From the IMG/VR virus record IMGVR_UViG_3300022660_000071: a stretch of 64,000 nucleotides of DNA; one strand, given 5' to 3'. Position numbers and translations under genes: made by a program. Positions within the stretch are counted from its first letter, which is position 1; every line of letters begins with the position of its first letter. This DNA comes from an uncultured virus (IMG/VR IMGVR_UViG_3300022660_000071) (lineage: Duplodnaviria > Heunggongvirae > Uroviricota > Caudoviricetes). Below are positions 8,171 to 62,714 of the stretch, piece by piece. The notes beneath the pieces are model-generated. The model was not told the origin of the DNA, ran no database searches, and saw nothing but the letters and a program-made list of their open reading frames with translations.

Positions 8171-8947
8171 TTATCTGCTAACACGTTTAACAAAGTTTTT
8201 AAACTCTGCTTGCTGCATTAGTTTTTGTTGTTTGCCTGCATTAAATATTGCTTTATTTGCAGCTTTTTTAGCCTTAGCCCTGTTAGCAGTTTCACTTTCA
8301 GGTTCAATAACAGCTATACGTCCGTTAATAACGCCTTCAGTAAATTTCAAATGATTAAAATCTTTTTTCGCTGTTTCATCTGATTCGATAACTGTTTTTA
8401 GACTTTCTAAACGCGCAGGTAAGAAGGTATCTTTGTAGAATGGAATAATTTCAGCTAAATCAGAATCTTCAATTTTACCATCTTTTTCGATATCCGACAC
8501 CAACCCAAGTTCACTTGGAAGTACGCCATCTAAAATTTGAGCTTGTTGATCAAAAAGACTGGCTGCAACTCCAACAAGTTTATTATCTTCATAATCAAAA
8601 TTATCGTTATAATAAACAACTGTAATTTCTTCAGGTCTGCCTATTACAATTTCTTTACCCGGCATCGAGCTACAAGTTTCAACAACAATATTTAAACCTT
8701 TCTTTTTTGTAATAATTGGGTTTATAAATGTTTTAATTTGGTCGTTAAATCTTAAACAAAAAATACGCTTATTGATACCAATTTGAGGAGCAGATAGCGC
8801 CAAGACTTCTGAATTAGCTTCAAGCACCTCTTTAATCTTAGTAATAATTTCAGTACCTTCTTCTTTTTGTGCACCTTTTTCGGTTAAAAAAGTTAATGGT
8901 TCTGACGCATTTGTCAAAAGTTCAACATTAGTAATAATTTTTTCCAT
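8171..8947 (-). CDS. Peptide deformylase-like protein, metal-binding motif degenerate
   Basis: LSAPQIG, FINP and ETCSSMPG match PDF motifs, but HExxH is replaced by QQAQI. Confidence 0.75.
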   Translation of the reverse strand: MEKIITNVELLTNASEPLTFLTEKGAQKEEGTEIITKIKEVLEANSEVLALSAPQIGINKRIFCLRFNDQIKTFINPIITKKKGLNIVVETCSSMPGKEIVIGRPEEITVVYYNDNFDYEDNKLVGVAASLFDQQAQILDGVLPSELGLVSDIEKDGKIEDSDLAEIIPFYKDTFLPARLESLKTVIESDETAKKDFNHLKFTEGVINGRIAVIEPESETANRAKAKKAANKAIFNAGKQQKLMQQAEFKNFVKRVSR

Positions 8948-9065
8948 ATTAATTTTCACCTTTATATAATTTTACTATACAATATATTATACATTAAATT
9001 TAGCAAATTTTTAATGTTATTAAATTAATAAATTAATAATTCAATAATTTTTAAAAAGCAAGCAT

Positions 9066-24877: not shown

Positions 24878-25021
24878 TTAGTTAATATGCTCTGCTATAT
24901 ATGAAATACACAATCGACGAATAAGCGCCGAAACAGTCGTTTCTTCTTTATTTGAAATTTCTTTTAGCTGATTCAAAAGCTCTTTAGATAATTTCAAAGT
25001 TATCATAGTTTGTTCTTTCAT
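24878..25021 (-). CDS. Small ribbon-helix-helix protein, 47 aa, not in ORF track
   Basis: Hand translation MKEQTMITLKLSKELLNQLKEISNKEETTVSALIRRLCISYIAEHIN; overlaps the end of the GIY-YIG gene. Confidence 0.65.
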   Translation of the reverse strand: MKEQTMITLKLSKELLNQLKEISNKEETTVSALIRRLCISYIAEHIN

Positions 25022-25730
25022 TAGCTGGTAGCCTTTCTAATATATTAATGAAAATTTCATAAAGCTTTTTATACGAATAGCAACAAAAATTCTTTTTTGT
25101 TTGTGTGGCTTCAGCCCTATCAAAAATCAAATGACGCTGCTCTTCAGTAAAGTACTTTGGAAATTTTTCATAAAGTGTAAACAGTTCTTGCCGCAGAATA
25201 GCTACTTTTCTTTTAGTATTTCGTGCAGCAGCTAAGTCTTTTTCGTGTTTTTCTGAATCTATTTTACGTTTATGTTGTGTTTTACGAAGTTGCGCTAATT
25301 TTTTAGCGTGTAGCTCAGGATCTTGCTGCATCCTCGCAATCCAATATTTAATACATTTTTTATTTGCTTCAATAGCAGCTTCTTTAGAAGCATAACGCAA
25401 ACGACCATCCCCGCCACGAGTTAAATTATAGCCACAGCATTCTGGATCACCGATATAGGTATGATATTTAGCAATCAGCTCCATTTCTTTTTGCTTGGCA
25501 TCATTTTCTGTTAAGCCTTCGTATAAAACAGTGTGCTCAAAATTGTCCCAACCATACTTTTCTATAGCTCTGGCGAAAACTTCTTGAGAATACTTTCCAT
25601 TTACATCTTTTCTAAGATAGCCATAACCATTTACACCCCACCGCTTTTGTGGTATTCTGCTGGTTATACCAAAGTATTTTTTATTATTAATTTTATTGGT
25701 ATGAACGTACACATAAAATGTTTGTTGCAT
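24984..25730 (-). mobile_element. Free-standing GIY-YIG homing endonuclease
   Basis: YVYVHTNKINNKKYFGIT, AIEKYG, E..LI and GYNLTRGGDG; start probably MQQTFY. Confidence 0.88.
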
Positions 25731-25818
25731 ATAAAATAAAGCTCCCATTAAATAATTTTTTTATCTATTTAATTTAGCTAATTTTTATATACAATTTATA
25801 TATTTTTTATATACAATA

Positions 25819-26307
25819 TTATTCAGCACTCATACTATTTGACAATTTCAGTTCTTGCATTTTACTCATTAAAATACTTTTGAGTGAATCGATCATTCTA
25901 AGTAGCATGTCTACTTTTGTTTTAACTAAACTTGCTACAAGGTCATAAAGACATTGAGCAACAATATTTTCAGAAATAGCCAAAGTTGTATTAGAATCTT
26001 TTACACCAGCAGTGCCTTCTTGTTCAACATAAGCGGTAGCATAAGCTTCTTTTTTAATCGCTTCTGCACAAGTTGCTTTAATACCGGATCTATCTCTAAG
26101 TTCACTTAAAGAATAAACTGCTAACTGTAACTTAAGAATGGAGTCTCTAAGCATTTCAATAGACATAGACTCTACGTTAAGTTGAATAAATTCTACAATA
26201 CGATTAGGCTCTTCAAAAGGTCCTGCGAGCATACTGTCAGCAATTTCCTTGATTTGCACATAAGTCATTTCAACCGCTTCAAGTGCTTTATTTAAATCAT
26301 TAGCCAT
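25819..26307 (-). CDS. Hypothetical helical protein, possibly UvsY-like recombination mediator
   Basis: All-helical 162 aa between recU and recA; mostly positional inference. Confidence 0.4.
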   Translation of the reverse strand: MANDLNKALEAVEMTYVQIKEIADSMLAGPFEEPNRIVEFIQLNVESMSIEMLRDSILKLQLAVYSLSELRDRSGIKATCAEAIKKEAYATAYVEQEGTAGVKDSNTTLAISENIVAQCLYDLVASLVKTKVDMLLRMIDSLKSILMSKMQELKLSNSMSAE

Positions 26308-26794
26308 TTAATACCTCCACTAAATAATTATAATCTGTTTCCATAAAAGTTCTAAGTTTCTTCGATGGAAGTGTTATAATATTATACAGTTTTTTATATG
26401 GTTTTTCATCATCAATCATTCTGAGGCCGATTGATTTTTCACCGTCATTTACCATTTTTTCCATTTCTTCGATAGACACCCAAATAACGACGTCTTTCTC
26501 ATAAAACCAAACTATAACACCCGGAAAAGTGCTTTTTAAACCTTTATAGTCTAATAAACGCTCATACTGAGGAATAGCATTAAATGGGATTGAAAGACCC
26601 TTATGAGCTTTACATTCAACCATTAACACACAACTGCCCGTATAACCAATAAAGTCGCACGGGTTAGCTGAGCCACCTCCAGCATAACCACTTTGCTGGT
26701 CTGGTAAACGATAAATTAGAGTATCTGGAAAACAACGTTTATAGTCTTGGTAAAAGCGTTGCTCGAATTTCTTACCAATATCTGTATTTGCCAT
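26300..26794 (-). CDS. recU: RecU-like Holliday junction resolvase
   Basis: GKKFE, YRLPD, NPCDF, ECKA and Q.ERL motifs. Confidence 0.75.
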   Translation of the reverse strand: MANTDIGKKFEQRFYQDYKRCFPDTLIYRLPDQQSGYAGGGSANPCDFIGYTGSCVLMVECKAHKGLSIPFNAIPQYERLLDYKGLKSTFPGVIVWFYEKDVVIWVSIEEMEKMVNDGEKSIGLRMIDDEKPYKKLYNIITLPSKKLRTFMETDYNYLVEVLNG

Positions 26795-27933
26795 TATTCT
26801 TTAGTCCTCGTTTCTGCTATAACATTACTGATAGTGCCACGATTAATAATAATTGATTTCTTATTACCGCAGTTCATAGTAATATGTTCGTTTTTACAAG
26901 AGTCGAGAACTGACTTAAGGTCAATCAAGTTTACACCCATAGAATAGCCGCCAGGAGTAACACTACCATTTTCAATAGTAATAACTTCCTTATTATCACC
27001 AGATAAATCAGAAATTGTAAGCTCTGTGTCAGTGAAATTTACTACAGCAGGAACGAAAGAAAGGTCAGCTTTTGCACTGCTATTTTTATAGAACATAAGA
27101 AGTCTTGCGATAGCTGCAGAAAGGTCAGTAGCAGACAAAACTAAGTTATGGTCATAAGTTTCTTTTACAAGATTTTTCATAGCATCACAAGGTGCTTTAA
27201 TTTTTTGAATACAAGTTTCGTCATTAAGAAGTCTGGTTGCTACGTAAATATCTTCAGTTTGGAATACTACAATAGGTTGAAGTGAGCTGTCTGCGTTTAC
27301 ATTGTGTCCATAAGACATCCAAACGTCGGTGCTGAAAAGCTTAAAGAGCTTAACTATTTTATCAGTAAGAAGAAGCTTAATAGGCTTTTCAAGAGTAAAT
27401 GCATTTACGCAGGCGCCAGTCGTAAAAGTAAAACAACCAGTTTCATCAACGTAATAATAACGTTGTAATTCATTAACGTCGAGCTTCTTAGCTTTTTGAA
27501 TTTCTTTACCATTAACATTAAGAATACTCATAAGAATATCATTAGTAATTGACATATCTACAGTTACTTGGTCCTTATCAAGCTTGATAATAGGCAATTT
27601 CATAAGCTGGTCATTTTCATAAATCATAGCCAACTTATAATTGCTCTTGCCGGCTTTTACTACTACGTTAGTATCATTAATCTTGAGTTCAAATTCTTCA
27701 GTATTAATACCAGAAATAAGATTTAAGAAAAGATTAGCATCAACAACAGCTCTAAATTCCGTAGGTGTTTCTAACTCAAACTTTACTGCACAATAATATT
27801 CTCTATTTGTCACTCTAAGGTATAGTGCAGTATCTTTTGCCGCGAGTTCAAGATTTGCAGCGGCCTTATCGAGACCAACAGCAACTAAAATTTTATTTGC
27901 AGCTTCTTGGAAATTTTTTGTCTTTAAAATCAT
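26794..27933 (-). CDS. dnaN: Sliding clamp, DNA polymerase III beta-like
   Basis: 379 aa with beta-clamp pattern (LYLRVTNREY, AVVDANLFLNLI, GVNLIDLKSVL); next to the polymerase. Confidence 0.75.
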   Translation of the reverse strand: MILKTKNFQEAANKILVAVGLDKAAANLELAAKDTALYLRVTNREYYCAVKFELETPTEFRAVVDANLFLNLISGINTEEFELKINDTNVVVKAGKSNYKLAMIYENDQLMKLPIIKLDKDQVTVDMSITNDILMSILNVNGKEIQKAKKLDVNELQRYYYVDETGCFTFTTGACVNAFTLEKPIKLLLTDKIVKLFKLFSTDVWMSYGHNVNADSSLQPIVVFQTEDIYVATRLLNDETCIQKIKAPCDAMKNLVKETYDHNLVLSATDLSAAIARLLMFYKNSSAKADLSFVPAVVNFTDTELTISDLSGDNKEVITIENGSVTPGGYSMGVNLIDLKSVLDSCKNEHITMNCGNKKSIIINRGTISNVIAETRTKE

Positions 27934-27989
27934 CTTTTAGTATTGCTCCTTTATTGTTTTTATATATTTATATTATACGGTAATATTTT

Positions 27990-28949
27990 CTAAAATTCAA
28001 GGTCGATGCCTTCGGTAATAGTTTTATAAATTGCTTCTTCAGGAAGTTCAGGGTGCTTTGCATAAAGTTTCTTAAATGCTTCATCTCTATCAAGTCCTTT
28101 ATCAGTAAGTTTTTTAAACTCAGACTGTACTGCTACAGCATATTCTGAAGTATACCATCTAGACTCGATAGCAGGGTCACATTTCATAGGAACGTCGATA
28201 TAAGGAGCAGCTGCATCAATCATAATTCTAGGAAGAATTTCTGAAGCTTGCTCTGCATAAAGAGCGGGACATTCTAACATAACTTCGTCGTGGATTGTCA
28301 TAACAAGTTTTGCATCAAGTTCCTTAAGCTCTTGGCTGTTGTGAATTTGAATCATTGCTAGTTTAGTTAAAGAGGCTGCGCTACCTTGAATTCTTGCATT
28401 AAGGCACTGTCTTTCAGCCTGAGCAATTCTACCTGTATTTGCTGATAGAATAATTCCTTCTTTTGCAGCAAGTTTAGCAAGTTCATCAAATTCTCTATTA
28501 TTTCTAGTTGCTTTTGCACGAGCTACCCACATAGTTAGCTTATCATCAACAAGCGGACGATTTTCACACCCAAGAATTGGATTGAAGGTTTTAGCTATCA
28601 AAGCTTCTGGATTTGCATATTCTGCTTCATAAGGATTTAAGAAATAATCAGTAAGATGTCTTCTTCTACCAGCCCAATCTTCTACATAACCGTGCTCTCT
28701 CAAGAACTGCTTAGAGCTATTAATAAGTTCTTCTACTTTAGGAAAGCTCTTAAAGAAGTTATCAAAAATTTCTTGCGCTTCTTGGTTTGTTTTATTAATA
28801 CGTTTTGCAAGCGTACTTGGGCCCATACCATAAGTACGCTAAGTTAATGCCAAAAGTACCATTTTTGCCACCGAACGTCTTTCTTTACCTTCTTTATTAA
28901 GAAGCTTAGCTGGCGACTTTACTTCAATAGTCTTATTAGCATATAACAT
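27990..28949 (-). CDS. polA: Family A DNA polymerase fragment 3 (motifs B and C), interrupted by in-frame TAG at 28839-28841
   Basis: AAGGAGGT RBS, ATG at 28949; MLYANK...RRSVAKMVLLALT*RTYGMGPSTLAK continues in frame to GYV..WAGRRR, NARIQGSAA and IHDE. Confidence 0.85.
28810..28844 (-). promoter_or_regulatory. Putative recoding (bypass) signal: ACT-TAG-CGT-ACT plus 9-bp hairpin
   Basis: Matched ACT codons flank the stop; AGCGTACTT (28840-28832) pairs with AAGTACGCT (28818-28810) around a 13-nt loop. Confidence 0.55.
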
Positions 28950-29001
28950 TAGCATCACCTCCTTAGTTTTAAAATATATAATATAATACAGTATATTAAG
29001 T

Positions 29002-29991
29002 TCAGTCTTTATATTTCCAAATAAATTTATGATATGTTTTGGCTTTGCCAGCACATACAGCATTTATCTTTTTTGCTACACCACGTTGTTTAGTGCTGTC
29101 GGTCGCTAACTGTCTAGACGCTTCGGCAGCGCTTTCAAACTCTGCAATGAAATTATTTTCTAAGTCATATTGTAAAACAGCTTTCGCTCTAGGCGTTTTG
29201 TTTTCTTGCTGAAGAATTTCTAGTGGCAGTTCCGCTAAATCAAAGTCTGTTTTATATCGCCAAATATAGCCATATGCGTGTCCTTTTTGTTCTTTGCATA
29301 CTAATAAAATTCTAGTATTGGCAGAATCCTGTAAGCTAAGCTCTTGTACAGCTTCAGAAGCAAATCGAAACGTTTTCCACAGCTTACCGGTATTTAAATC
29401 ATAAGCGTTAATAGGACTTAAATGCTTAGCCTTTGTTGCACGCAAAAGTTCTTTAGATTCTTCTGAAAAATGTTTTCCGTAAAAAGAATTTTTATCACCA
29501 GTGCGTTTAGACGCAGCGATACTTAATTTTGCTTTATGCTCATCAGATTTTGGCTTTCCTTTAATAGCAAGCCCTCGATTTATACAAAGCTGCGCATAAC
29601 GTTCTGGTTCTTCCTTTTTTAATCTTTGCCAAGCTGTTAAGTTACTTTCTTTAATACGCTGCTTAGTTTCTTCTGTATGCATATAGCCATGGATACCTTG
29701 ACCACCTTCAGTCATATTATAGCCTTGGCCATTTAGGTAGAACGTATTATAATATTTAATATAATATTGCTCTCGTTCGTCAATTAACTCTTCTAAAATA
29801 TCAGTTTCGATAAGCTTAAATTCAAAATTTTCAGCACCATACTTTCTGATAGCATTGTGAAGAACTTTACTATCGTTTACAGTGTAAACAAAATGTTCTT
29901 GCCAGCGTCGTTCTGCTCTGCCTTGCTTTGTTTGGCCAACATATTTTTTGTTGTTAACTAAGTTTGTTATTAAATAAATTACATATAACAT
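29002..29991 (-). mobile_element. GIY-YIG homing endonuclease inside the split polymerase locus
   Basis: VIYLITNLVNNKKYVGQT, GYNMTEGGQG, NUMOD3-like repeats and two NUMOD1/HTH-like domains. Confidence 0.92.
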
Positions 29992-30053
29992 AAATTAAAT
30001 TGTTCCTTGCAGTTATTTACGGTATGCACCCTATTTAATTTAGCTAATAATTT

Positions 30054-30485
30054 TTAATCAATAAAATAAATTGTCGTAGTGCCATTTAAGGTCTCAGCTG
30101 CTCTAACGGTAAAAGCACCTTCTTCCGCGATAATACTATCACCAGCCTGTATATCACCTGCTGCTTTTGTGCCAGATGTAGTCGGCACTAGATAATAATA
30201 AGGAACTTCTAATTTATCTGAAACCTGTTTTTTATAGCTTTTATCGTTTCCAGCTACAGTTTTTTTACCGTCTAACTCTAATACATAGCCTTCAGGAAAA
30301 TTCTCTAAATTATCTTCATATTTATTATTATAAATATTAGCTGCAATAACGCAATAAAGGTCCTTACCTTCGAGGTAGGCTGCTCGCATGTTAGGGTCGC
30401 CACTCAGGAATGTAGTTATACGTGGTTCTTGAGCCGAGTAGTCAGACCCAACCAGTTTATATAAAGTTCTTGTTTTTACTTTCAT
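30054..30485 (-). CDS. polA: Family A DNA polymerase fragment 2 (motif A) with C-terminal Hint-like module
   Basis: LVGSDYSAQEPR and GKDLY; TAATG coupling to fragment 1. Confidence 0.88.
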   Translation of the reverse strand: MKVKTRTLYKLVGSDYSAQEPRITTFLSGDPNMRAAYLEGKDLYCVIAANIYNNKYEDNLENFPEGYVLELDGKKTVAGNDKSYKKQVSDKLEVPYYYLVPTTSGTKAAGDIQAGDSIIAEEGAFTVRAAETLNGTTTIYFID

Positions 30486-32362
30486 TAATACTTCCTCACA
30501 GTAAATTCATATTCTTTCTTTAGAACATCGTAGCGAACAACTTCAATAAGAGCAGGCCCCTCGTCTGTAAGCACACTATCTTTAAGCGCCACAATATCTT
30601 TACCGTATTTCCAGCCATCTATAGTTTCAATCTCAGAAATTTCAGGAAGAACAATTTGGTCTTGTTCAACCTCAATCTCATTAAATTCCTTCTTAGCTTC
30701 AAACAAAAGTCGAGTAATTTTACCATCACCACGTGAAGGAATATTCTGTGAGTTAAACCCAGAAATTTCAATAGGTTCGTCGCCATCTAAGAACTTAAAT
30801 TCACCACCTGAAGAAAAACGTCCTGTATCAGTACCAACAGAATTAAGCTTATAACGAATTCTTCCGTCAGGCCAATGCTTTGCAAGTTCAGGAAGTACGT
30901 CAATATAGGTAGATATAAGTTTAACTACACCTCTGCGTTCCAAAATCAGCTTACAGAGCGCAATATCGGTTCTCTCAGCCAAAGCTTCAAGCTCGTCTTT
31001 ACCTGTCCCACGAGGCGATTTTTTGCTTACAGTAGGGCATTTTAAGATGTCATAAAAGAGTATTGCGAGCTGTGTAGGCGACGCAAGGTTAATTTCATCA
31101 TCAAGCTGCTCAATTTTAGCCTTACCAAGCTTATATCTTTTGCCTGTTTTAGTATCAACAAATGGATATTTTTCTTCAATTTGAGCAAGTGATAATTTAG
31201 TTTTCTTAGGCTCAAATTGCTTAGTTTTTTCGGTTGCTCCACTCTTTGGGTCTGTTTTCCATTTATTAATTTTAGGTTCAAGTGCTTTTAATTCATTAGC
31301 AATTCTGGCGTCTATTTCTTCTAAGTTTTGATTAAACTTTAATCTTAGACGTTCACCAAAATCTTGGTCAATACAAACACCAATAAGCTCAATGTCTCCT
31401 GCAACTTTTACAATTGGCATTTCAATGGTTTTAAACATCCAGTAAAGTCTTTCATTACCAGGAGCTTCTAAGATAGCGACTTGATATAAGTAAAGTTTAT
31501 CAGTCATCATTGAGTCAGTTGCAGCATATAGAGCAAAGATGTCAGGGTCGACGTATTTATAAGGAACTGTAAACAAACTTTCAATGTCGTACTTTTCTTG
31601 AGTAGGGTCAATCTTGGTAGTATACTGAATTTTAAGACCCATTTTTTCATTTTCATTGATAGTATGTGCACCAATCATTGTATCCCAGTTGGGCTCAATT
31701 TCAATATCACAAGTACATTTAATAACTTCGTAGTCGAACTTACCATTGTGCATTACTACAAAAGTATCAGCATCTTTAATTCTTTGAAGCTGTTCTCTAC
31801 AATCTACTTCAGTAAGTTGCCATTCAAGACGAACGCCTGTTTCTGGGTCAACGTGATTAACTGGAATATAGGCTTGTTTGCCGCCTTCATAATACAAACA
31901 AAGGCCCATAAGTTGACAAGTCATTGGATCAGTTGAGTTATTAGTTTCAGTGTCGACTGCAATTCTACCAAATTGAATGGCTTTAGATATATATTCTTCA
32001 AAGTCTTCTTTAGTCTTAATTACAATAACATTTTTACGTTGTTTACCTAAAACTTCTAAAACTTTTATCTTAATTAACGCAAGTTTTTCTGCCAACGATA
32101 CTTTTTTAGATTTTAATACTTTAGCTGCGTCTACTTCGTCCGCATCAGCGCTATTTATTTTATCTAATAGAGATTCTGCTTTAGGTTTATTTAACTCTAT
32201 ATTAAACTCTTCACTTGTAAATAAATTTTGATTAGTTAAGTTTTGACTTTGAACTACTACATTTGTTATTGGCGCTGCCCTTTTAATAAGTTCTTCGGGT
32301 GATACTTTAGGCTTTGGCTTTTTATCGATTTTCAAGTCAAAATCACTAAATAAACTACTCAT
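30485..32362 (-). CDS. polA: Family A DNA polymerase fragment 1 (3'-5' exonuclease, thumb) with C-terminal Hint-like module
   Basis: DTET, HNGKFD and YAATD exo motifs; NLASPTQL, TGRFSS and NSQNIP. Confidence 0.92.
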   Translation of the reverse strand: MSSLFSDFDLKIDKKPKPKVSPEELIKRAAPITNVVVQSQNLTNQNLFTSEEFNIELNKPKAESLLDKINSADADEVDAAKVLKSKKVSLAEKLALIKIKVLEVLGKQRKNVIVIKTKEDFEEYISKAIQFGRIAVDTETNNSTDPMTCQLMGLCLYYEGGKQAYIPVNHVDPETGVRLEWQLTEVDCREQLQRIKDADTFVVMHNGKFDYEVIKCTCDIEIEPNWDTMIGAHTINENEKMGLKIQYTTKIDPTQEKYDIESLFTVPYKYVDPDIFALYAATDSMMTDKLYLYQVAILEAPGNERLYWMFKTIEMPIVKVAGDIELIGVCIDQDFGERLRLKFNQNLEEIDARIANELKALEPKINKWKTDPKSGATEKTKQFEPKKTKLSLAQIEEKYPFVDTKTGKRYKLGKAKIEQLDDEINLASPTQLAILFYDILKCPTVSKKSPRGTGKDELEALAERTDIALCKLILERRGVVKLISTYIDVLPELAKHWPDGRIRYKLNSVGTDTGRFSSGGEFKFLDGDEPIEISGFNSQNIPSRGDGKITRLLFEAKKEFNEIEVEQDQIVLPEISEIETIDGWKYGKDIVALKDSVLTDEGPALIEVVRYDVLKKEYEFTVRKY

Positions 32363-32401
32363 TTACAACCTCCTGAAAATTTATATATAATATAATACAG
32401 T

Positions 32402-32432
32402 AAAAGCGCATCCAATTTTAGATGCGCTTTTT
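32402..32432 (-). terminator. Intrinsic terminator after ssb, fused to the polA promoter motif
   Basis: Minus strand AAAAGCGCATCTAAAATTGGATGCGCTTTT then ACTGTATTATA. Confidence 0.8.
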
Positions 32433-32456
32433 AAATTTATTCTTATTTTATTTAAA

Positions 32457-33365
32457 TTAGAAGCTAAAACCAGTAAAGTTTCTGGTAGCACCACCAAGTG
32501 CGTTTTCAGAAGGTACTACAGGAGTAGCTGGTGCAGTTGGTTGAACAGACGCTGGTGCAACAGGAGCTGTATAAACAGGAGTTGTAGGAGCGACAGGTTG
32601 AACTTGTGCAGGTGCTACGTAAGCAGGTGTTGCAGTTGCAGTATAAGCATTTGCTACAGCCGCCACATTATTTGCTGCTTGCTGATTATTCTGAACTCTT
32701 TCAGGGAATTGTCCAGTAGTAAGGAAGGTATTAATTTCCTCTGCGGTCTTTTCCCAGTAAGAATGTTTTGCAATATTAAAGTTAGTAAATGCTTTAAAAT
32801 CAGCAGGAATCATTTCAGGCTTAAATACAGGATGTGTAGCAGGAAGAACATCTACAGAATAAGTAGTTTGCATATCGCCTGCTTTACCATTACGAGTAAT
32901 AAGAACAAGAACGTTTCTAAGATCACCGGCAATCATAAGCTTATTAGCTAATTCACGAGAGAAACCTGCAGGACGGTCCCAAATAACAGGCATTGGAGGC
33001 GTGTAGCCAGTTGCAGAGTTAGGGTCACGATAAGAAACAATCATAGGAATAAACATCTTTTTAGATGCCTTACTAATAGAACCCTTAGGATTAGCCTGAT
33101 TAGCAGAACAAAGGGCACAGCCGGCTGTGTTCATGCCGAGAGGATTGTGGCAACTTACTTTAAGCCATTTGCCGCCCGCTTGAACAGTATGCACTGCTGC
33201 AAACATAAATTCATCAGTAGATGAAAGATTAATACGTGCGATAGCGATATCACCGTCGTTAGCAAGTTTGAAGTAGCCTACTTTAGTGCCGTCGCCACTT
33301 GATTGAGCTTGTTCTTGTGCTGCGATTTGTTGGTATTGGGCGTAATTGAATGTGGAATTTGACAT
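32457..33365 (-). CDS. Single-stranded DNA-binding protein (gp32-like)
   Basis: YFKL..DGD, H/C..CALC zinc ligands, ITRNGKAGD..TTY and a P/A-rich tail ending in Phe; in the replication cluster. Confidence 0.78.
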   Translation of the reverse strand: MSNSTFNYAQYQQIAAQEQAQSSGDGTKVGYFKLANDGDIAIARINLSSTDEFMFAAVHTVQAGGKWLKVSCHNPLGMNTAGCALCSANQANPKGSISKASKKMFIPMIVSYRDPNSATGYTPPMPVIWDRPAGFSRELANKLMIAGDLRNVLVLITRNGKAGDMQTTYSVDVLPATHPVFKPEMIPADFKAFTNFNIAKHSYWEKTAEEINTFLTTGQFPERVQNNQQAANNVAAVANAYTATATPAYVAPAQVQPVAPTTPVYTAPVAPASVQPTAPATPVVPSENALGGATRNFTGFSF

Positions 33366-33449
33366 TTTGTAAAAATCTCCTTGTATTGTTTTTGTATTTT
33401 TTATTTATTTTTTTTGTCATTGTCTGACATCTATATTATACAATAATAA

Positions 33450-34178
33450 TTACGAATTTTTATTGTATTTTTTGATTTTATTTTTATCTTTATATTGCCA
33501 ATGATAACCACCGGTTGTCTTTGCTCTGCCAGTTATACAGTTAGCAATGCCTGAAGCGTGACAACCGGTCTGTCTAGCAGCCTCAGCGATATTATAATAA
33601 GTAATATTGGTTTCGAGACAAACAACTTCATTTATTTGGCCTTCACTTATACGTTTATTCCACTCTGTAGGATGCTTACCAGTTTTCTTACCTAATTTTG
33701 CTTTGCGCATCTTTTCTTTTGCTTCATCAGACGTGCTATGCCCTAGTTTTTGTTTAGAAATTTTTACACAAGTTTCTACAGAATGTTTCCTACCTAAACC
33801 GGCAAGTCTTAACTTTTCTAAGGCTTCTGGTGTATGTTTGCAGCCAGCAAAAAATCCACCGTCACCTCCAGCAGAAATGTTATAGCCGTTATTACGAGCG
33901 TCATAAAAGTTAATCCAGTATTTTTCACGCTGATTCATTTCTTCTAAACTAAATACTTCTTCAAGAAGCTGTATACTAAAATTCTTATAGTTATGCTTAT
34001 TTATGGCAGGATATAGTCTAGAATTATAGCCGAAGCCAGTTCCAGACTCCATGCATTTCTGCCAACGTCTAGCTTCATAATAGTGCTCTTTCCAGCGCTT
34101 TTCTATTGTCTTAGTCGTCTTTCCAATATAAGGCTTATTGTTTAGTAAATTAGTTATTTTATAAATATAATAAGGCAT
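33450..34178 (-). mobile_element. Free-standing GIY-YIG homing endonuclease
   Basis: YIYKITNLLNNKPYIGKT, GYNISAGGDG, NUMOD3 repeats and C-terminal HTH. Confidence 0.92.
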
Positions 34179-41143: not shown

Positions 41144-41296
41144 TTACTCGGCAACTTCTTTTAAGTATTTTTCTAAGGCAATTCTAATCAACGCATTCAT
41201 AGTCATGTCTTGCGCATCTGCCTGTGCTCTCAACTTTTCATTTAATTCTTTTGAAATATCTAAATTAATTCTAATTCTTTCCTTCTTCATTTTCAT
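41144..41296 (-). CDS. Small ribbon-helix-helix protein
   Basis: RIRINLDISKELNEKLRAQA...MTMNALIRIALEKYL; start MKMKK after GAGG. Confidence 0.75.
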   Translation of the reverse strand: MKMKKERIRINLDISKELNEKLRAQADAQDMTMNALIRIALEKYLKEVAE

Positions 41297-41981
41297 AATC
41301 CTCTTTATAATACCAGTTATAGCCCAATAATTTATGACTTTTACCACAAATTTTGCTTATTTGTGAACCGTGTCTACCTACACTTTTTCCTGCAGCGGTA
41401 GCAGATTTGTAATAACAAATTTCACCAGTTTCAGATATTCTAACAACTTCTCTAATCCTCGCTGCGTGAGTACCTAAGGTTTGATAAGTATCATACTCAG
41501 TTGCAAAACACCAATAAAAACCACCAACAGTTAAGTATCCACGCTTACGACCACAACAACGAGTGATTCTATCGGGTGAGGTGTTAAAAGTTCTAGCCGC
41601 CTCTGAGACTGATTCAAATTCAGCTAGAATGTTCTTATTCTGGTCCAACTGAAATACTTTTTTCTGAATTGCTGTTGTATTATTACAAGTACCACCTTGA
41701 GTACTGTTATAGCCATTACATTGAGGGTCATAAATCCAAGTGTGATAATAAGCTATCCAATATTGCTCACGTTCATTAGCTAAAGTTTTTGTTGGGATAT
41801 TATCTTCTATGATTTCATGATAAAAATTATCAAAGCCATACTTTTTAATCGCGGCATAAAAAATAGGGCTTTCTTTATAGCCAAAACCATTTCGCCATCT
41901 ACGAGTTGCTTTTTGCGAAGTTAATCCAACATAGCTCTTACCATTAAATTTATTAATATGTCGATAAATTAAATAAGTCAT
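41271..41981 (-). mobile_element. Free-standing GIY-YIG homing endonuclease
   Basis: LIYRHINKFNGKSYVGLT, GYNSTQGG and NUMOD1-like C-terminal domains; downstream of thyA. Confidence 0.9.
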
Positions 41982-51545: not shown

Positions 51546-54500
51546 TTATAAACGCGAAGAGCGTGCTAGCTGAATTCCACTGTCTAAGTAACTAATATCA
51601 ATTTTAGAAATAACAAAACTATTATTTACGTTATTAATATCATAGTTAGTAGCTGGATACATTAAAGTATTTAATTTGCTATCACCCTCATTAAAGTCAA
51701 TTGCTACGTCTGCTTCTACTGGAGTATTATAGTAAAATAAATTATTTTTATCTATATTACGTATTTCAGCTAAGAGCTGTTCTTCTAATTTAGCTCTAAT
51801 AAAAACTTCTTTAAATGATTCAGGAATATTACCTGCGCCTAGTGCTGTTATACCATTGTCTATTTGTCCATCATCATCTACGTCTTCACCAAGAAGTTCA
51901 GTTACAATTTCTGTTAACTGTTCGTCCTCATAACTAGTATTAATACTAACTATTTGTTCAATTTTAGAGCCAGGCTCAGCTCGGTTATCAACCAATTCAT
52001 ACCAGTTCTTATTATAGTAACGATATCTATAATCATCAGCTAAGTCATCCGTTGTACCAATTCTTCTGCCAGCACTATCTATCCAATAAAATCCGCCTGC
52101 TTCCGTCACAACCCTCCAAGCAGCCTTTAAGTTATCATCCAATAAAATCTTAAATATGTCCCACTCAGTCGGTTTAGCAACTGGTACCTTATCCTTAGCA
52201 GCCTTATAGGTGCTTAAATTAGCGATGTAACTACTTGGAAGTAGCGCACCATTATAGCTAATAGCATAGTCAGTTAAGGTATTAACAAGATATCTTAACT
52301 GTAATACAATATTATCAATAGCTGCATCAAGGTCGCGGTCTAATACTTGCACTTTTATGCCGTCTTCACTATTAATAAAGTTTCTAACCTCATTATAAAA
52401 ATCACCTTCAGGCAGTCCTCTTAAAAGTAAAATGCTTGGGCTTAGCATTTCAGCAGTAATTTTCAACAGATTTTCATCTAATTGAATTAATTTAGTAAGC
52501 TCTTCTTTTAGATCCGTTAAAATTTGCTGTTGAGCTAATACGTCATTTTCATCAATACTTTTTAGCTGAGTAGCTAGGTTATAAATGACTAATGCACCAG
52601 CATTGGTTTCCGTAAATGCATTTAATTTAGTCTGAACCTCAGGAATAGCTAGTGCGCTATTACTCAGTGTTTCAACAATTGCTTTTTTATTGCTTACTTG
52701 GTTACTTTTATATACTAAATCTTTAGCTTGTTTATAAAGCTTTTTAAATAATTTAATATTTGCGAGTTTATGAAGAACTGGTCGGTCTGTTAAAACATTA
52801 GTATTAATAACTGCTGCCGATATAGATAAATCTCTAACAATTGCACGAATAGCACTATATAAAGGTTCAACTTCATCTTTAATAGCTTTTTTCATATAGT
52901 CAGGCCAAACTGTCACTATTGCTTCATTACCAAAAGGAAGGTCACTACTCGCTAAAGTATTATTAGAAAAACTTTCTACAGTCTCTTCATACTCTGTTCT
53001 TTTTTGGATAGCTAATTCAAGCTGTTCTATTAAAATGTTACGGTTAAGAATAGTACTATCACGTAATAATGCTAAAATAGTATCTTTACTAGCCAAGTTA
53101 GTAATTTTTGTGAGCTCAGTTGTAATTATTTGTGCATTTGCTTTTGCTGCCGCCCAAATAACTCTCTCTATCTGTTCGACACAATCTACGATATCATCGT
53201 CTTTGTTACTATCGGTTTTGCTATATACCAACGTAAGTACTTCGTCAATTTTGTTTATAAGTGAGTTATTACTAAACTCGAGCGCACCACCCAGCTCTTG
53301 TAAATGGTCAAGAAGCTCAGCATATAAGCTATTCTCTGCTGCTTCATTGACTTTACTTAATATAGCAGATATATTAAGAGTTTTTACTTCAGCACGAAGG
53401 TCTAGTAACAACTCAGCTACAGACGTATAGTCAATATCAGTTTCAGATTTGACCGCCGTAGATATAGCACTAATTTGGTTTTCAATACTAGAAGCGTCAT
53501 CTGATAATAGTGCTGTGGTCAGCTCATCTATTAAGTCTTCAATATCACTATATTTAAATGTATAAATCTTTCTAGCCAATTCCTCTTCCTGGCTAGCGAT
53601 TAACTCAGAAACAATATACTCAAGCTTGTTGTCATATTCAGAATTAATTTTTGCCAAACTTGCTACTTTTAAAGCATTTTTAAGCCCGTCGTCTGAGAGG
53701 TAGCTTGACCCAGTAGCCTTGACAGCTATATTATAGTCATCGACAATATCTTCTTGACTCAACTCTTCAATATTTTCCATATTAGTCGATACATCGCTAT
53801 ACAAATTAGCTAGCGCATCAATTAAACTTTGTTGTAATGCACTAATATCATCAAAATTATTTAAAAGGTCTGCAAGACTCTTTGTAATATCTTCGATAGC
53901 TTTATTATCATCTAAAGCTTTTTGAAGTTCTTTCTCAGCAGATAGCGATTCAGTTAAGGCTTCAAACTGCGTAATTAAAGTAGTTAAAGTATCAGTAGTT
54001 TTAAAAGACGTATCGTCATCGTCAGTTTTAATTAAGGCCTCGAGTTCACTAATTGCCTGTTTTAAGAACTCTTTAATAATCTCTGCTTTTGGTCTATCAG
54101 CAGCTAATGAAGCTTCTGCTACTGAGACTTTATTATTAAGTTCTTGTATTCTAGCTTCAACTTTCTGTAGCGCTTCTTCAGTAAGAGCTTTCTTAAGATT
54201 TTTACGAGCACGAGAATCAATTTCGTTCCAAGTTGTCGTATCAGAAGTAGCTAAGTAGCCTAATTGCTCTAAGTTTAATCCATGAGTAGTTTTTTGATTA
54301 TCATTAATTTTAGAAACATCGACTAATCGTAGAGTATCAAAGCATAGTAAACCATTAGGAGCATTTGATGTAATATAAATATCACAAGATTCTGAAATGC
54401 GAATACAGTTTAATCCTGGGGTTAGCTCTAATCCAGTGTCCTCTGAATAAGTTGCTCTACTTGAATTAAATAGTGATATTATATCATTAGCAGACCCAGG

Positions 54501-61666: not shown

Positions 61667-62476
61667 TTAGATTTCTTTTTCTAGTAAATATTGTTCAATA
61701 TAATTTCTATCCTGAGTAAAAATTGGAATCTCTGTATCTATTACCCAATCATGCTTATAACCTATAAGTCTATCAGTGCATTCAACTTCTTTTTTAATGC
61801 AACAAACACCACGCTTGAATTCAATAGGCATATCGTTAAAATTAATACCTTTTTGCAACATCAACATGTCTTGAATATCATTGCAACTTTTACCTTGTAA
61901 TTCTCTATGAGAAAAATGAGTTTGACCTAACATTTGAATAGCATTTCGAGTTGCGTCTTGCTGCCTCCAAATAAAGCAGTTAGTTACTTCTTCTTTTGGA
62001 ATATTAAAACAACGGGCATCAAACATTGCGCCTTTATCACGAGCTAGGCACATGGTCTTGTGGTAGTCATCCATGCCAATAGCGCCCTCAAAGTGGCGAT
62101 TAACGGCAGTTCTAAAATACTTATTAAACATTAAAGTCGCCATCGAAGCTGCAATAGAGCACATTTTCTGAACGCCATAACCAAACCAAGCATCAGTTGT
62201 AAGAGTAGTATAGTCAGTCAAGAGAAGTGTAATCTCGTCAGACTGCGTATAACCAAGTTTACAACCCTGAATATTAGCACAAAGATACTTCATTGTGTTA
62301 TTCATTGCTTCATGGAAGATTTCATCGTAAGGTCTCTTAAAACCTTTTGTAAAGCTGTGAAAAGCCTTACCATCTAAACGAATAATTACAGGAGTTCGTC
62401 TTGTGAGGTACATCTTAGAACGATTCTCATAAAACTCCTTCATGCGATCGCCAAGTGAATCTTTAGTCTTTTTCAT
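61667..62476 (-). CDS. tRNA(His) guanylyltransferase Thg1-like (3'-5' polymerase)
   Basis: LGDRMK.FYE, RLDGKAFH.FT, YTQSDEI, FDAR and WRQQDATRN. Confidence 0.92.
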   Translation of the reverse strand: MKKTKDSLGDRMKEFYENRSKMYLTRRTPVIIRLDGKAFHSFTKGFKRPYDEIFHEAMNNTMKYLCANIQGCKLGYTQSDEITLLLTDYTTLTTDAWFGYGVQKMCSIAASMATLMFNKYFRTAVNRHFEGAIGMDDYHKTMCLARDKGAMFDARCFNIPKEEVTNCFIWRQQDATRNAIQMLGQTHFSHRELQGKSCNDIQDMLMLQKGINFNDMPIEFKRGVCCIKKEVECTDRLIGYKHDWVIDTEIPIFTQDRNYIEQYLLEKEI

Positions 62477-62714
62477 TCTTATTACCTCGTCTTGATTTGT
62501 TGATTCTGCGCCTTTCTTTAGCATCATCAATACAACAATAAATATATGCTACTACGATTACTAAACTTATGATACTAGTAGTAATCCAAAGTGGAGAAGT
62601 CACCCACCACCATGACCAATTAATAACCCCAACAAGTTTCAAAACTAAAAAAATTAAAAATAACACCATACTTACTCCAATTCCACCATTTGTACTATTA
62701 GTATTTTTGCTCAT
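62463..62714 (-). CDS. Small two-TM membrane protein
   Basis: LFLIFLVLKL.GVI.WSWWWV.SPLW. Confidence 0.75.
   Translation of the reverse strand: MSKNTNSTNGGIGVSMVLFLIFLVLKLVGVINWSWWWVTSPLWITTSIISLVIVVAYIYCCIDDAKERRRINKSRRGNKNEKD

What the first reader, a model, noticed from the sequence alone, without database searches (positions are those of the whole stretch)
28810..28844. In-frame amber stop in polymerase motif B with matched take-off/landing codons and a hairpin: candidate programmed ribosomal bypass or RNA excision
Seen: the minus strand reads GCA TTA ACT TAG CGT ACT TAT GGT ATG (A L T * R T Y G M). Removing 9 nt gives RRSVAKMVLLALTYGMG, which has exactly the family A motif B spacing (AK-x7-YG, as in E. 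coli Pol I AKAINFGLIYG). The stop is preceded by ACT, and an identical ACT sits 9 nt later. The insert read as AGCGTACTT is the perfect reverse complement of AAGTACGCT 13 nt downstream, forming a 9-bp hairpin that buries the stop and landing codon. The 36-codon upstream part has a strong AAGGAGGT RBS and its own promoter motif. The post-stop ATG (28826) has no SD, and restarting there would drop the motif B Tyr. Established: matched codons, an adjacent UAG and a stem-loop define T4 gene 60 bypassing. Inference: the essential polymerase is gated by a 9-nt stop-hop, or by excision and religation (an RNA ligase is encoded in this window). Plain readthrough would add 3 residues to the O-helix.
Basis: partly seen in the sequence, partly recalled or inferred. 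Interest (0 to 1): 0.93.

Follow-up and report, generated by a model that had tools for sequence, protein, structure and literature searches.

The report
Stop-hop insert in phage DNA polymerase
A gut phage's replicative DNA polymerase gene carries a 9-base insert that begins with a stop codon inside a catalytic motif; relatives carry a whole series of such inserts beside homing-endonuclease genes, and the pattern indicates that ribosomes hop over them, as in the classic T4 gene 60 case.

Summary
On the minus strand the family-A polymerase reads ...GCA TTA ACT TAG CGT ACT TAT GGT ATG..., with a 9-bp hairpin. Independent contigs carry the same 9 nt.

The context changes the picture. The polymerase is split by a GIY-YIG homing-endonuclease (HEG) cassette, and the stop lies 36 codons into the new downstream gene.

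- **Motif B:** 49 related loci without this cassette read AKMVLLALTYGMG uninterrupted. All 8 interrupted loci have the cassette-type junction. They carry three different inserts: 9 nt (ACT..ACT), 12 nt (TTG..TTG) and 12 nt (CTT..CTC).
- **Motif A:** 20 relatives carry analogous inserts of 6, 7, 8, 9, 10 or 12 nt behind a second cassette.
- **All 17 insert alleles:** each starts with an in-frame stop. In 15 the last triplet is synonymous with the codon before the stop. Five change the reading frame, which excludes readthrough.
- **Selection:** both sides of the stop are under strong purifying selection (dN/dS at most 0.075).

Best explanation (about 0.75): short translational bypassing ("stop-hop") over inserts that probably protect the endonuclease target. 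This is an independent analogue of T4 gene 60/MobA. No protein or RNA data exist, and the hairpin is not a general feature.

The parts
30485..32362 (-). Polymerase part 1 (625 aa): 3'-5' exonuclease plus the N-terminal polymerase domain. Its stop overlaps the start of part 2 (ATGA).
   Evidence: ORF. Pfam DNA_pol_A_exo1 and DNA_pol_A. The same split is seen in all close relatives. An unsplit 1106-aa form exists in distant relative L122.
30054..30485 (-). Polymerase part 2 (143 aa): motif A (DYSAQEPR, uninterrupted in this window). From about residue 80 (30248-30057) it carries a 64-aa C-terminal extension that cassette-free relatives lack.
   Evidence: Compared with the 383-aa uninterrupted ORFs of L005 and L012.
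29002..29991 (-). Free-standing homing endonuclease gene (329 aa) with GIY-YIG, NUMOD3 and NUMOD1 domains, inserted between part 2 and part 3.
   Evidence: Pfam. Homologues sit at the same place in L016 (92% aa) and in L008/9/10 and L050 (65-66%).
28957..28964 (-). Shine-Dalgarno sequence AAGGAGGT for the new downstream gene (part 3).
   Evidence: Equivalent GAGGAGGT or AAGGAGGT is present in L008, L016, L021 and L050.
28842..28949 (-). First 36 codons of part 3: a new N-terminus followed by the first half of motif B (KERRSVAKMVLLALT). Ends in the take-off codon ACT (28844-28842).
   Evidence: dN/dS is 0-0.075 among the five insert-bearing sequences compared.
28833..28841 (-). The 9-nt coding gap TAG CGT ACT: stop codon (28841-28839), CGT, and landing codon ACT (28835-28833).
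   Evidence: Absent from 49 loci with intact motif B. ACT at +9 is the first triplet in any frame that shares AC with the take-off codon.
27990..28832 (-). Resumed reading frame: 280 codons (YGMGPSTLAK... motif C ...DLEF) plus the stop. Predicted bypass product is 36 + 280 = 316 aa.
   Evidence: Pfam DNA_pol_A. dN/dS 0.04-0.07.
28810..28840 (-). Hairpin with arms 28840-28832 and 28818-28810 (9 bp, 13-nt loop). The 5' arm is essentially the insert itself, an inverted copy of downstream coding sequence.
   Evidence: p<=0.0005. Not conserved in the other insert types.

Best explanation
The window holds the replication module of a jumbo-type gut phage (relatives' genomes are about 220 kb). Its family-A DNA polymerase has been invaded by a homing-endonuclease cassette.

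The cassette has five elements:
- a C-terminal extension on the upstream polymerase fragment
- a GIY-YIG/NUMOD endonuclease gene
- a new ribosome-binding site and start codon
- a re-supplied copy of the first half of motif B
- 36 codons in, a 9-nt insert (TAG CGT ACT) in the middle of the motif-B O-helix

Proposed decoding (inferred):
1. The ribosome starts at ATG 28949 and translates 36 codons.
2. It stalls with peptidyl-tRNA(Thr) on ACU and UAG in the A site.
3. The tRNA unpairs and the mRNA slides 9 nt.
4. The tRNA re-pairs with the next ACU, and decoding resumes at UAU.

The product is a 316-aa fragment whose motif B is identical to that of uninterrupted relatives. Ribosomes that terminate instead release a 36-aa peptide.

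Proposed purpose (inferred by analogy with T4 MobA/gene 60): the insert disrupts the endonuclease's own target in the conserved motif DNA without changing the protein.

Proposed origin (inferred): a templated, fold-back type insertion at the break. This would explain why the insert is an inverted copy of neighbouring sequence and is flanked by the direct repeat ACTT.

Shown here: the anatomy, the link between cassette and insert, the matched-codon rule across many alleles, the frame-changing alleles, and purifying selection on both sides of the stop.

Not shown: the hop itself, its efficiency, and the endonuclease's target.
For: 1. **Link to the cassette (motif B).** Motif B is interrupted in 8 of 57 loci where it is visible: the window, L003, L008, L009, L010, L016, L021 and L050. 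Seven of the 8 have a 329-339-aa GIY-YIG ORF between part 2 and part 3. The eighth, L021, keeps the split and the insert but has lost the ORF. The other 49 loci have a continuous gene with intact motif B.
2. **Three insert types in motif B, each with matched codons.** ACT[TAG CGT ACT]TAT. TTG[TGA CGA AAC TTG]GCA, with a CAA variant in L050. CTT[TAG GGA AGG CTC]GCC. At the shared site the take-off and landing codons change together, TTG/TTG against CTT/CTC.
3. **A second site in motif A.** 20 of 54 loci with motif A visible are interrupted, and none has the tight ATGA-type junction seen in the window. Of the 15 interrupted loci in the close clade, 6 have an endonuclease ORF upstream (GIY-YIG, or LAGLIDADG in L038), 7 have lost it, and 2 are cut off by the contig end. 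Insert lengths are 6, 7, 8, 9, 10 and 12 nt.
4. **Rules over all 17 alleles.**
   - 17 of 17 begin with an in-frame stop (TAG 12, TGA 4, TAA 1).
   - 15 of 17 end in a triplet synonymous with the codon before the stop; 7 are identical.
   - 16 of 17 share the first two bases.
   - In 15 of 17 that triplet is the first such match in any frame downstream.
   - 5 alleles have lengths that are not multiples of 3, yet the conserved protein sequence resumes directly after the matching triplet.
   - Where take-off and landing are synonymous but not identical (8 of 17), they differ only at the third base.
5. **Selection.** Among the insert-bearing sequences compared, dN/dS is 0-0.075 for the 28-29 codons before the stop and 0.04-0.07 for the 278 codons after it (51 in pairs with the truncated L050). 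dS is 0.3-2.2. The five codons ALTYG between the landing codon and the first ATG show only synonymous differences in L008, L021, L016 and L050.
6. **Only polymerase.** The complete relative G001 has one family-A polymerase gene, carrying its TGA, and no family-B polymerase.
7. **No suppressor tRNA.** None was found among 13 tRNAs (G001) and 29 tRNAs (G002).
8. **Reproducibility.** The 9 nt are present in independent assemblies.
9. **Precedent.** T4 gene 60 has the same cassette logic and the same identical-or-wobble rule for take-off and landing codons (Manning & Atkins preprint, passages and section 16 read).
Against: - There is no direct evidence of the bypass product: no proteomic, ribosome-profiling or RNA data.
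- The W-type 9-nt allele is seen only in identical copies (the window, L003, and contigs of X1 and X6). Its own matched codons and hairpin cannot be tested by covariation. The case for it rests on sister alleles.
- Two alleles have only near-cognate landing triplets: A7 (CCG to TCG) and A8 (GAA to GAT).
- In A3 an earlier GA-triplet precedes the proposed landing site.
- Microhomology-mediated insertion could create matched flanking triplets without any selection for hopping.
- Stop-hops in synthetic constructs are called low-level in the passages read. How enough polymerase would be made is unexplained.
- None of the known gene-60 stimulators could be established here. Those are a compact take-off stem-loop, a Shine-Dalgarno-like element in the gap, and a defined nascent-peptide signal.
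Confidence: 0.75

Rival explanations
1. Split protein without a hop. Translation ends at TAG, giving a 36-aa peptide. A separate 278-aa protein starts at ATG 28826 by coupling or re-initiation. The pieces assemble non-covalently, as parts 1 and 2 already must.
For: The polymerase is already made of separate polypeptides. An ATG lies 12 nt after the stop codon. In the 12-nt TTG type the landing codon could itself serve as a start, and ORF-listing runs a 284-aa TTG ORF there.
Against: Starting at ATG 28826 would lose the motif-B Tyr-Gly here, and ALTYG in the types at the LL site. Those codons show only synonymous differences. The landing triplets ACT, CTC, TCA/TCT, GAA/GAG and TCG are not start codons. 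In the motif-A alleles the next in-frame ATG is about 15 codons downstream, beyond conserved catalytic residues. There is no Shine-Dalgarno sequence before ATG 28826. This model does not explain why the triplet before the resumption point matches the take-off codon.
Confidence: 0.1
2. Stop-codon readthrough for in-frame inserts, or frameshifting at the stop for the others. This would add 2-4 residues to motif A or B.
For: The 9-nt and 12-nt inserts are in frame. Three or four extra residues are about one helical turn.
Against: Five alleles are not multiples of 3, so readthrough cannot serve them. All three stop codons are used, and they are normal stops elsewhere in the window. No suppressor tRNA was found. 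The P-site codons (GAA, TCT) cannot re-pair at +1 by standard pairing. Two different mechanisms would be needed where one hop explains every case. The matched triplets are left unexplained.
Confidence: 0.05
3. Repair scars in non-functional or dispensable polymerase genes. Endonuclease cleavage followed by imprecise, templated repair left stop-bearing insertions, and the polymerase function is supplied by something else.
For: The inserts look like inverted copies of flanking sequence with short direct repeats, which is typical of templated break repair. Uninterrupted alleles co-occur in the same samples (loose ends in X1 and X6).
Against: Purifying selection is strong on both sides of the stop over large synonymous divergence. 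The same insert type is retained across sequences with dS of about 0.9, for example L008 against L021. The complete genome G001 has no other family-A or family-B polymerase. All 17 alleles keep a matching triplet exactly at the resumption point.
Confidence: 0.05
4. The insert is removed at the RNA level (excision and religation, or polymerase slippage between the repeats), so the ribosome sees an uninterrupted message.
For: Short direct repeats flank the inserts.
Against: No known mechanism excises 6-12 nt. Take-off and landing triplets often differ at the wobble base (TCT/TCA, GAA/GAG, CTT/CTC), which fits one tRNA reading both rather than nucleic-acid identity. No RNA ligase family was found in 63 of 64 ORFs scanned. 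No group I intron was found.
Confidence: 0.03

Closest known systems
Phage T4 gene 60 bypass / MobA homing-endonuclease cassette (topoisomerase large subunit)
   Same: A homing endonuclease splits an essential replication gene. The cassette carries a C-terminal extension, the endonuclease, a new start, a re-supplied homologous segment, and then a short untranslated insert a few dozen codons into the new gene. The insert begins with a stop directly after the take-off codon. Landing codons are identical or wobble-related. The endonuclease is sometimes lost or replaced by another family while the insert stays (Manning & Atkins preprint, compared here).
   Different: The gene is different (family-A DNA polymerase, motifs A and B). 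There is no sequence relation to gene 60. The gaps are 6-12 nt instead of 20-50 nt. No conserved take-off stem-loop or gap Shine-Dalgarno element was found. There are two separate sites in one enzyme, and 3 loci need two hops. Nothing has been tested experimentally.
Synthetic 'stop-hops' in E. coli (matched codons flanking a stop), as reviewed in Atkins et al. 2016 (PMC5009743, passages read)
   Same: A short hop of peptidyl-tRNA over a stop codon to a matched codon. The 6-nt allele TCT[TAG TCT] (L014, L035) has exactly this form.
   Different: Those were engineered constructs. The review passages state that no natural in-frame stop-hop was known. Here the inserts are natural, conserved, and lie in an essential gene.
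Bypass elements ('byps') in Magnusiomyces capitatus mitochondria (as described in PMC5009743, passages read)
   Same: Short inserts in coding regions are rendered harmless by translational bypass. Imperfect two-of-three take-off/landing matches are tolerated.
   Different: Those are mitochondrial, have an unused sense codon rather than a stop in the A site, and occur at 81 sites across many genes. No link to homing endonucleases is mentioned in the passages read.
Free-standing homing endonucleases that split phage genes (MobE-type endonucleases inserted within the nrdA ORF, listed in the Manning & Atkins supplement captions)
   Same: An endonuclease gene sits between two halves of a replication-related gene, and both halves stay functional.
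   Different: No stop-bearing insert or recoding is mentioned for those cases in the passages read.

Membership tests
Family-A DNA polymerase (Pol I type) | Pfam DNA_pol_A and 3'-5' exonuclease domains; motifs A, B and C in order | tested here: met
   One search finds DNA_pol_A in parts 1, 2 and 3, and DNA_pol_A_exo1 in part 1. In one search the uninterrupted relative L005 aligns to Taq polymerase over motifs A, B and C, with motif B gap-free.
GIY-YIG homing endonuclease (I-TevI/Seg-like) | N-terminal GIY-YIG catalytic domain plus NUMOD DNA-binding modules; free-standing gene inside or between host genes | tested here: met
   GIY-YIG 38.2 bits, NUMOD3 42.5 bits, NUMOD1 29.8 bits, all above the curated cut-offs. 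Its position between polymerase fragments is shown.
GIY-YIG homing endonuclease (I-TevI/Seg-like) | Cleaves the endonuclease-free allele near its insertion site; its own allele is immune | not testable with these tools
   Indirect only. The insert is the main difference between cassette-bearing and cassette-free motif-B DNA, and both alleles co-occur in runs X1 and X6.
Programmed translational bypassing (hopping) | Take-off codon matched by a landing codon directly 5' of the codon where the conserved protein resumes | tested here: met
   ACT...ACT in the window. Across the family, 15 of 17 alleles are synonymous and 16 of 17 share the first two bases.
Programmed translational bypassing (hopping) | A slow-to-decode codon (stop) in the A site at take-off | tested here: met
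   17 of 17 alleles have TAG, TGA or TAA immediately after the take-off codon.
Programmed translational bypassing (hopping) | Resumption is independent of reading frame | tested here: met
   Alleles of 7, 8, 8, 10 and 10 nt resume the conserved sequence after the matching triplet.
Programmed translational bypassing (hopping) | A single polypeptide spanning the gap is actually made | not testable with these tools
   Needs protein data. No run recorded as RNA was listed either.
T4 gene 60-type bypass cassette | Homology to the gene 60 / topoisomerase cassette; coding gap of about 20-50 nt | tested here: not met
   The host gene is a DNA polymerase and the gap is 9 nt (6-12 nt across the family). 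The preprint reports all its cases in topoisomerase genes and contains no occurrence of the word 'polymerase'.
T4 gene 60-type bypass cassette | Conserved take-off stem-loop and a Shine-Dalgarno-like element in the gap | tested here: inconclusive
   The window has a significant 9-bp hairpin, but it lies 3' of the stop with a 13-nt loop. Only 2 of 11 alleles have stems beyond chance. The 6-nt gaps of the 12-nt inserts are mostly purine-rich (GGAAGG, CGAAAG), but the window's gap is CGT.
T4 gene 60-type bypass cassette | Nascent-peptide stimulator | not tested
   The 36-residue nascent chain is basic and conserved, but it is also functional polymerase sequence, so conservation does not discriminate.

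The most novel reading that the evidence does not exclude
A second, evolutionarily independent family of homing-endonuclease/bypass cassettes exists in phages. Ribosomes perform natural 'stop-hops' of only 6-12 nt inside catalytic motifs A and B of the replicative DNA polymerase.

The inserts arise repeatedly at endonuclease break sites and turn over. There are at least 12 types at five codon positions. They persist after the endonuclease is lost, and some polymerases need two hops.

This would mean that the ordinary bacterial ribosome's latent hopping ability is enough to support an essential gene. It would also mean that 'invisible' inserts are a general immunity strategy against homing endonucleases that target conserved motifs.
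Probability: 0.65. Interest if true: 0.92.

Novelty: new variant of a known kind. Interest (0 to 1): 0.88.

Why it matters
Utilised translational bypassing in phages rests on one established cassette family, T4 gene 60 and its homologues, all in topoisomerase genes. There are also candidate cases in Streptomyces phages, and yeast mitochondria provide another system. The 2016 recoding review (passages read) says shorter-distance counterparts were long presumed, but that no natural in-frame stop-hop was known.

If the reading is right, this polymerase family gives four things:
- A natural allelic series of gap lengths (6, 7, 8, 9, 10 and 12 nt), three stop codons and several take-off tRNAs. That is a ready-made experiment on the rules of hopping.
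- Independent support for the idea that bypass inserts evolve as self-protection for homing endonucleases that target conserved catalytic-motif DNA.
- A possible one-step origin, by templated insertion at the break.
- A practical warning: such genes are called as fragments or pseudogenes in phage and metagenome annotation.

Three full-text searches found no paper describing bypassing in a phage DNA polymerase.

Tried and rejected
- **Group I intron or other known RNA:** the Rfam E-value scan of 26000-34000 found only two sub-threshold hits to an unrelated sRNA family, at the terminator near 32400.
- **Close cultured relatives:** megablast against phage records found nothing. tblastn found only relatives below 40% identity, such as Streptococcus phage Dp-1 and Clostridium phage phiCTP1.
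- **Stop-codon reassignment:** TAG and TGA end normal ORFs in the window.
- **Suppressor tRNAs:** none in the window or in the tRNA clusters of G001 and G002.
- **Expression data:** no RNA holder was listed for the stretch. Only contigs, not raw reads, could be laid.
- **Hairpin as a general signal:** rejected. With contiguous Watson-Crick stems against randomised inserts, only the window's allele (p<=0.0005) and A5 (p=0.027) stand out among 11 alleles. Local folding z-scores resemble those of uninterrupted controls.
- **Promoter claim:** weak.
- **RNA ligase:** not found by Pfam.
- **Split intein joining the fragments:** considered and dropped. Pfam finds no Hint domain in part 2, and no Asn followed by Cys, Ser or Thr junction is present in the new N-terminus. 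The expected junction residues are recalled knowledge.
- **Script false positives:** the table script gave three, which I corrected by eye. L004 and L015 were flagged as 'motif B interrupted' and L128 as 'motif A interrupted'.
Full report
**1. The observation**

On the minus strand, one search shows GCA TTA ACT TAG CGT ACT TAT GGT ATG. The TAG lies at 28841-28839, with ACT at 28844-28842 and again at 28835-28833. AGCGTACTT (28840-28832) is the perfect reverse complement of AAGTACGCT (28818-28810), leaving a 13-nt loop.

When the 9-nt insert was replaced by random sequence, a stem this long appeared in fewer than 1 of 2000 trials. AAGGAGGT (28964-28957) precedes an ATG at 28949, which gives exactly 36 codons up to the first ACT.

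TAG is a normal stop here: 9 of 70 ORFs of 100 aa or more end in it, including this gene.

The 9 nt are not an assembly slip. Contigs built independently from run X1 (possibly the source sample) and from run X6 (another sample, depth 12) cover the site with no difference and no gap. IMG/VR contig L003 is identical.

**2. What surrounds it**

All genes lie on the minus strand. The region is a replication module containing:
- clamp loader, RecA and sliding clamp
- polymerase, primase and DnaB helicase
- nucleotide-metabolism genes
- type II topoisomerase

The family-A polymerase is in pieces:
- part 1, 32362-30485 (exonuclease and N-terminal polymerase domain)
- part 2, 30485-30054 (motif A plus a 64-aa extension)
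- a 329-aa GIY-YIG/NUMOD3/NUMOD1 homing endonuclease, 29991-29002
- a new ribosome-binding site
- the 36 codons that end in the stop
- the 278-aa ORF from ATG 28826

No group I intron or other Rfam family explains the arrangement.

**3. Relatives: motif B**

Searches of viral, metagenome and genome collections gave 57 loci, counting the window, in which motif B is visible.

- 49 loci have a continuous gene reading ...LELDGNKTVCG(Y/H)KTHLNKEGKERRSVAKMVLLALTYGMG... in the close clade, or an equivalent intact motif B in the more distant ones. In the uninterrupted relative L005 this stretch aligns without gaps to motif B of Taq polymerase.
- 8 loci are interrupted: the window, L003, L008, L009, L010, L016, L021 and L050. 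L008 and L010 lie on one contig.
- All 8 have the cassette junction. Seven carry the endonuclease ORF (92% or 65-66% aa identity to the window's). L021 has lost it but keeps the split and the insert.

The inserts are of three kinds:
- ACT[TAG CGT ACT]TAT, 9 nt (the window and L003)
- TTG[TGA CGA AAC TTG]GCA, 12 nt (L008, L009, L010 and L021, with CAA in place of CGA in L050)
- CTT[TAG GGA AGG CTC]GCC, 12 nt (L016)

Each starts with a stop directly after a sense codon. Each ends with the same or a synonymous codon, after which the conserved protein sequence continues. At the shared Leu-Leu site the two flanking codons differ between types but change together (TTG/TTG against CTT/CTC).

**4. Relatives: a second site in motif A**

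Looking upstream in the same loci, motif A (GSDYSAQEPR) is interrupted in 20 of the 54 loci where it is visible.

None of the 20 has the tight ATGA-type junction seen in the window. In every interrupted locus whose junction was inspected, the part1|part2 junction carries a new ribosome-binding site and N-terminus.

For the 15 interrupted loci of the close clade:
- 6 have an endonuclease ORF upstream. It is GIY-YIG in L011 and L024 by Pfam. L051, L034 and L021 (the last two partial) hold similar ORFs. L038 has a LAGLIDADG ORF instead.
- 7 have lost it, leaving a 73-76-nt junction.
- 2 are cut off by the contig end.

In the distant clade L126 has a 608-aa ORF at that place, and L121 and L123 have none. 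The upstream ORF of L131 was not examined.

The insert types are:
- TCT[TAG CGA AAG TCA], with four variants
- TCT[TAG TCT]
- GAA[TGA CT GAG]
- GAA[TAG CCCT GAA]
- GAA[TAG C GAG]
- GAA[TAG CCT GAG]
- CCG[TAA GGT TCG]
- GAA[TAG CT GAT]
- TCT[TGA AGAG TCG]

L016, L021 and L050 are interrupted in both motifs. The window's own motif A is intact. The distant relative L122 has an unsplit 1106-aa polymerase, the presumed ancestral state.

**5. The rule across all alleles**

Of 17 distinct alleles in 12 types:
- All 17 begin with an in-frame stop (TAG 12, TGA 4, TAA 1).
- 15 end in a triplet encoding the same amino acid as the codon before the stop. Seven of these are identical.
- 16 share the first two bases.
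- In the 8 alleles where take-off and landing are synonymous but not identical, the difference is only at the third base.
- In 15 the landing triplet is the first triplet in any frame after take-off that shares those two bases.
- Five alleles have lengths of 7, 8, 8, 10 and 10 nt. The downstream conserved sequence is then in another frame, yet it starts exactly after the matching triplet.

The exceptions are A7 (CCG to TCG), A8 (GAA to GAT) and an earlier GA-triplet in A3.

**6. Are these genes alive?**

Among the five insert-bearing sequences compared:
- dN/dS is 0-0.075 for the 28-29 codons before the stop.
- dN/dS is 0.04-0.07 for the 278 codons after it (51 codons in pairs with the truncated L050).
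- Synonymous divergence is 0.3-2.2.

The five codons ALTYG between the landing codon and the first ATG differ only synonymously in L008, L021, L016 and L050. In the motif-A alleles the codons AQEPRI after the landing triplet vary almost only synonymously, although the next in-frame ATG is about 15 codons further on.

The complete relative G001 has a single family-A polymerase gene, with its TGA, and no family-B polymerase. No tRNA with a stop anticodon is present.

**7. Interpretation**

One mechanism accounts for every allele. Peptidyl-tRNA on the take-off codon, facing a stop, unpairs. The mRNA slides, and the same tRNA re-pairs at the next matching triplet, whatever the frame. The protein that results is identical to that of uninterrupted relatives.

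The alternatives each fail somewhere:
- Readthrough cannot serve the five frame-changing alleles.
- Frameshifting cannot serve the in-frame ones.
- Re-initiation lacks start codons and would delete conserved residues.
- A pseudogene is contradicted by the selection data.
- RNA excision does not explain wobble-only differences.

The architecture is the one described for T4 gene 60/MobA and its homologues: extension, endonuclease, new start, re-supplied homologous segment, then the insert. In that system the insert protects the phage's own DNA from the endonuclease. [quoted passage not shown] This is from the Manning & Atkins preprint, of which I read the outline, found passages and section 16.

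The same protective role here is an inference. It fits two observations. The insert is the main difference between cassette-bearing and cassette-free motif DNA. Both alleles co-occur in runs X1 and X6.

**8. The hairpin and the origin of the insert**

The window's insert is an inverted copy of sequence 13 nt downstream and is flanked by the direct repeat ACTT. Several motif-A inserts are partial inverted copies of the sequence just upstream. Examples are GCTCAG-GAATGA-CTGAGC in L024 and GAACC-GTAA-GGTTC in L123.

Statistically, however, only 2 of 11 alleles exceed chance. Folding energies are not unusual against uninterrupted controls.

I read the hairpins mainly as footprints of a templated, fold-back insertion at a break. 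Such an event would also create the matched triplet in one step. A role in bypassing is possible but unsupported.

With the take-off codon in the P site, the 5' arm of the window's hairpin would lie inside the ribosome. This follows from general knowledge of the ribosome's mRNA footprint, not from a call.

**9. Comparison and novelty**

The system works like gene 60 but is not a member of that family: the gene is different, there is no homology, and the gaps are 6-12 nt. Its 6-nt allele has the exact form of the synthetic stop-hops. The 2016 review (PMC5009743, passages read) says no natural in-frame occurrence of these was known, and that shorter counterparts of gene 60 had long been presumed. 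Full-text searches found no report of bypassing in a phage DNA polymerase. The supplements of the bioRxiv preprint could not be seen and might list other genes.

**10. Limits**

- Everything here is comparative.
- The window's own 9-nt allele occurs only in identical copies, so its case rests on sister alleles.
- Efficiency is unknown and the host is unknown. The nearest cultured relatives, below 40% identity, infect Streptococcus and Clostridium.
- No RNA or protein data exist.
- Microhomology at insertion could by itself give matched triplets. What argues for function is that these alleles persist under purifying selection, with the stop in frame and the match exactly at the resumption point.

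**Verdict**

The bypass interpretation is supported (confidence about 0.75). It is a new variant of a known kind, of high interest.

Noticed in passing
window 30485-30488 (part1|part2 junction); L122:2173-5493: The polymerase is also split between part 1 and part 2 by an ATGA stop/start overlap, in the window and in many close relatives, with no endonuclease and no insert. A distant relative, L122, has the unsplit 1106-aa gene. This looks like an old cassette scar.
   Followed up: partly
window 33450-34178, 41271-41981, 24984-25748 (all minus strand): Three further GIY-YIG-type endonuclease genes or hits lie in the window. They sit between the primase and a 302-aa gene, next to thymidylate synthase, and next to RecA. 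The neighbouring ORFs looked intact, but I did not check them for hop-like inserts.
   Followed up: partly
L016, L021, L050: Three relatives carry stop-bearing inserts in both motif A and motif B, so their polymerase would need two separate hops.
   Followed up: yes
L038:1398-2357; L126:2308-4134: At the part1|part2 junction the GIY-YIG gene is replaced by a LAGLIDADG-type ORF in L038, and by a 608-aa ORF of unknown family in L126. The motif-A insert is kept in both.
   Followed up: partly
L103:10167-10255 (G002); G001:C1:189586-192020: ARAGORN reports a tRNA with a four-base anticodon 'tcac' in the cassette-free relative G002. Several tRNA-model hits in G001 are 130-200 nt long (possible intron-bearing tRNAs) and were not called by ARAGORN.
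   Followed up: no
L102 (G001 tRNA cluster): The relative whose motif-B insert uses TTG for take-off and landing encodes its own tRNA-Leu(CAA), as well as tRNA-Thr(TGT), tRNA-Glu(TTC) and tRNA-Leu(TAG). This may be coincidence.
   Followed up: no
window 28811 (loose ends in runs X1 and X6): The same samples that hold the insert-bearing allele also hold contigs of the uninterrupted, cassette-free allele. This is the situation in which homing between co-infecting phages could occur.
   Followed up: partly
window 32402-32431: A strong bidirectional terminator-like hairpin (11-13 bp) lies just upstream of polymerase part 1. It is the source of the only weak Rfam hits.
   Followed up: no
window 8171-8959, 61667-62530, 51546-59048: The phage encodes a peptide deformylase-like protein, a Thg1-like tRNA-His guanylyltransferase and a 2500-aa ORF. 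The last was not scanned.
   Followed up: no
12-nt inserts in L016 and in the A1 alleles (L011, L016, L017, L019, L021, L027, L034, L038, L051, L131): The 6-nt gaps of the 12-nt inserts are purine-rich and weakly Shine-Dalgarno-like (GGAAGG, CGAAAG, CGAAGG, CGGAAG). They are more conserved than nearby synonymous sites. A possible role in landing was not tested.
   Followed up: no
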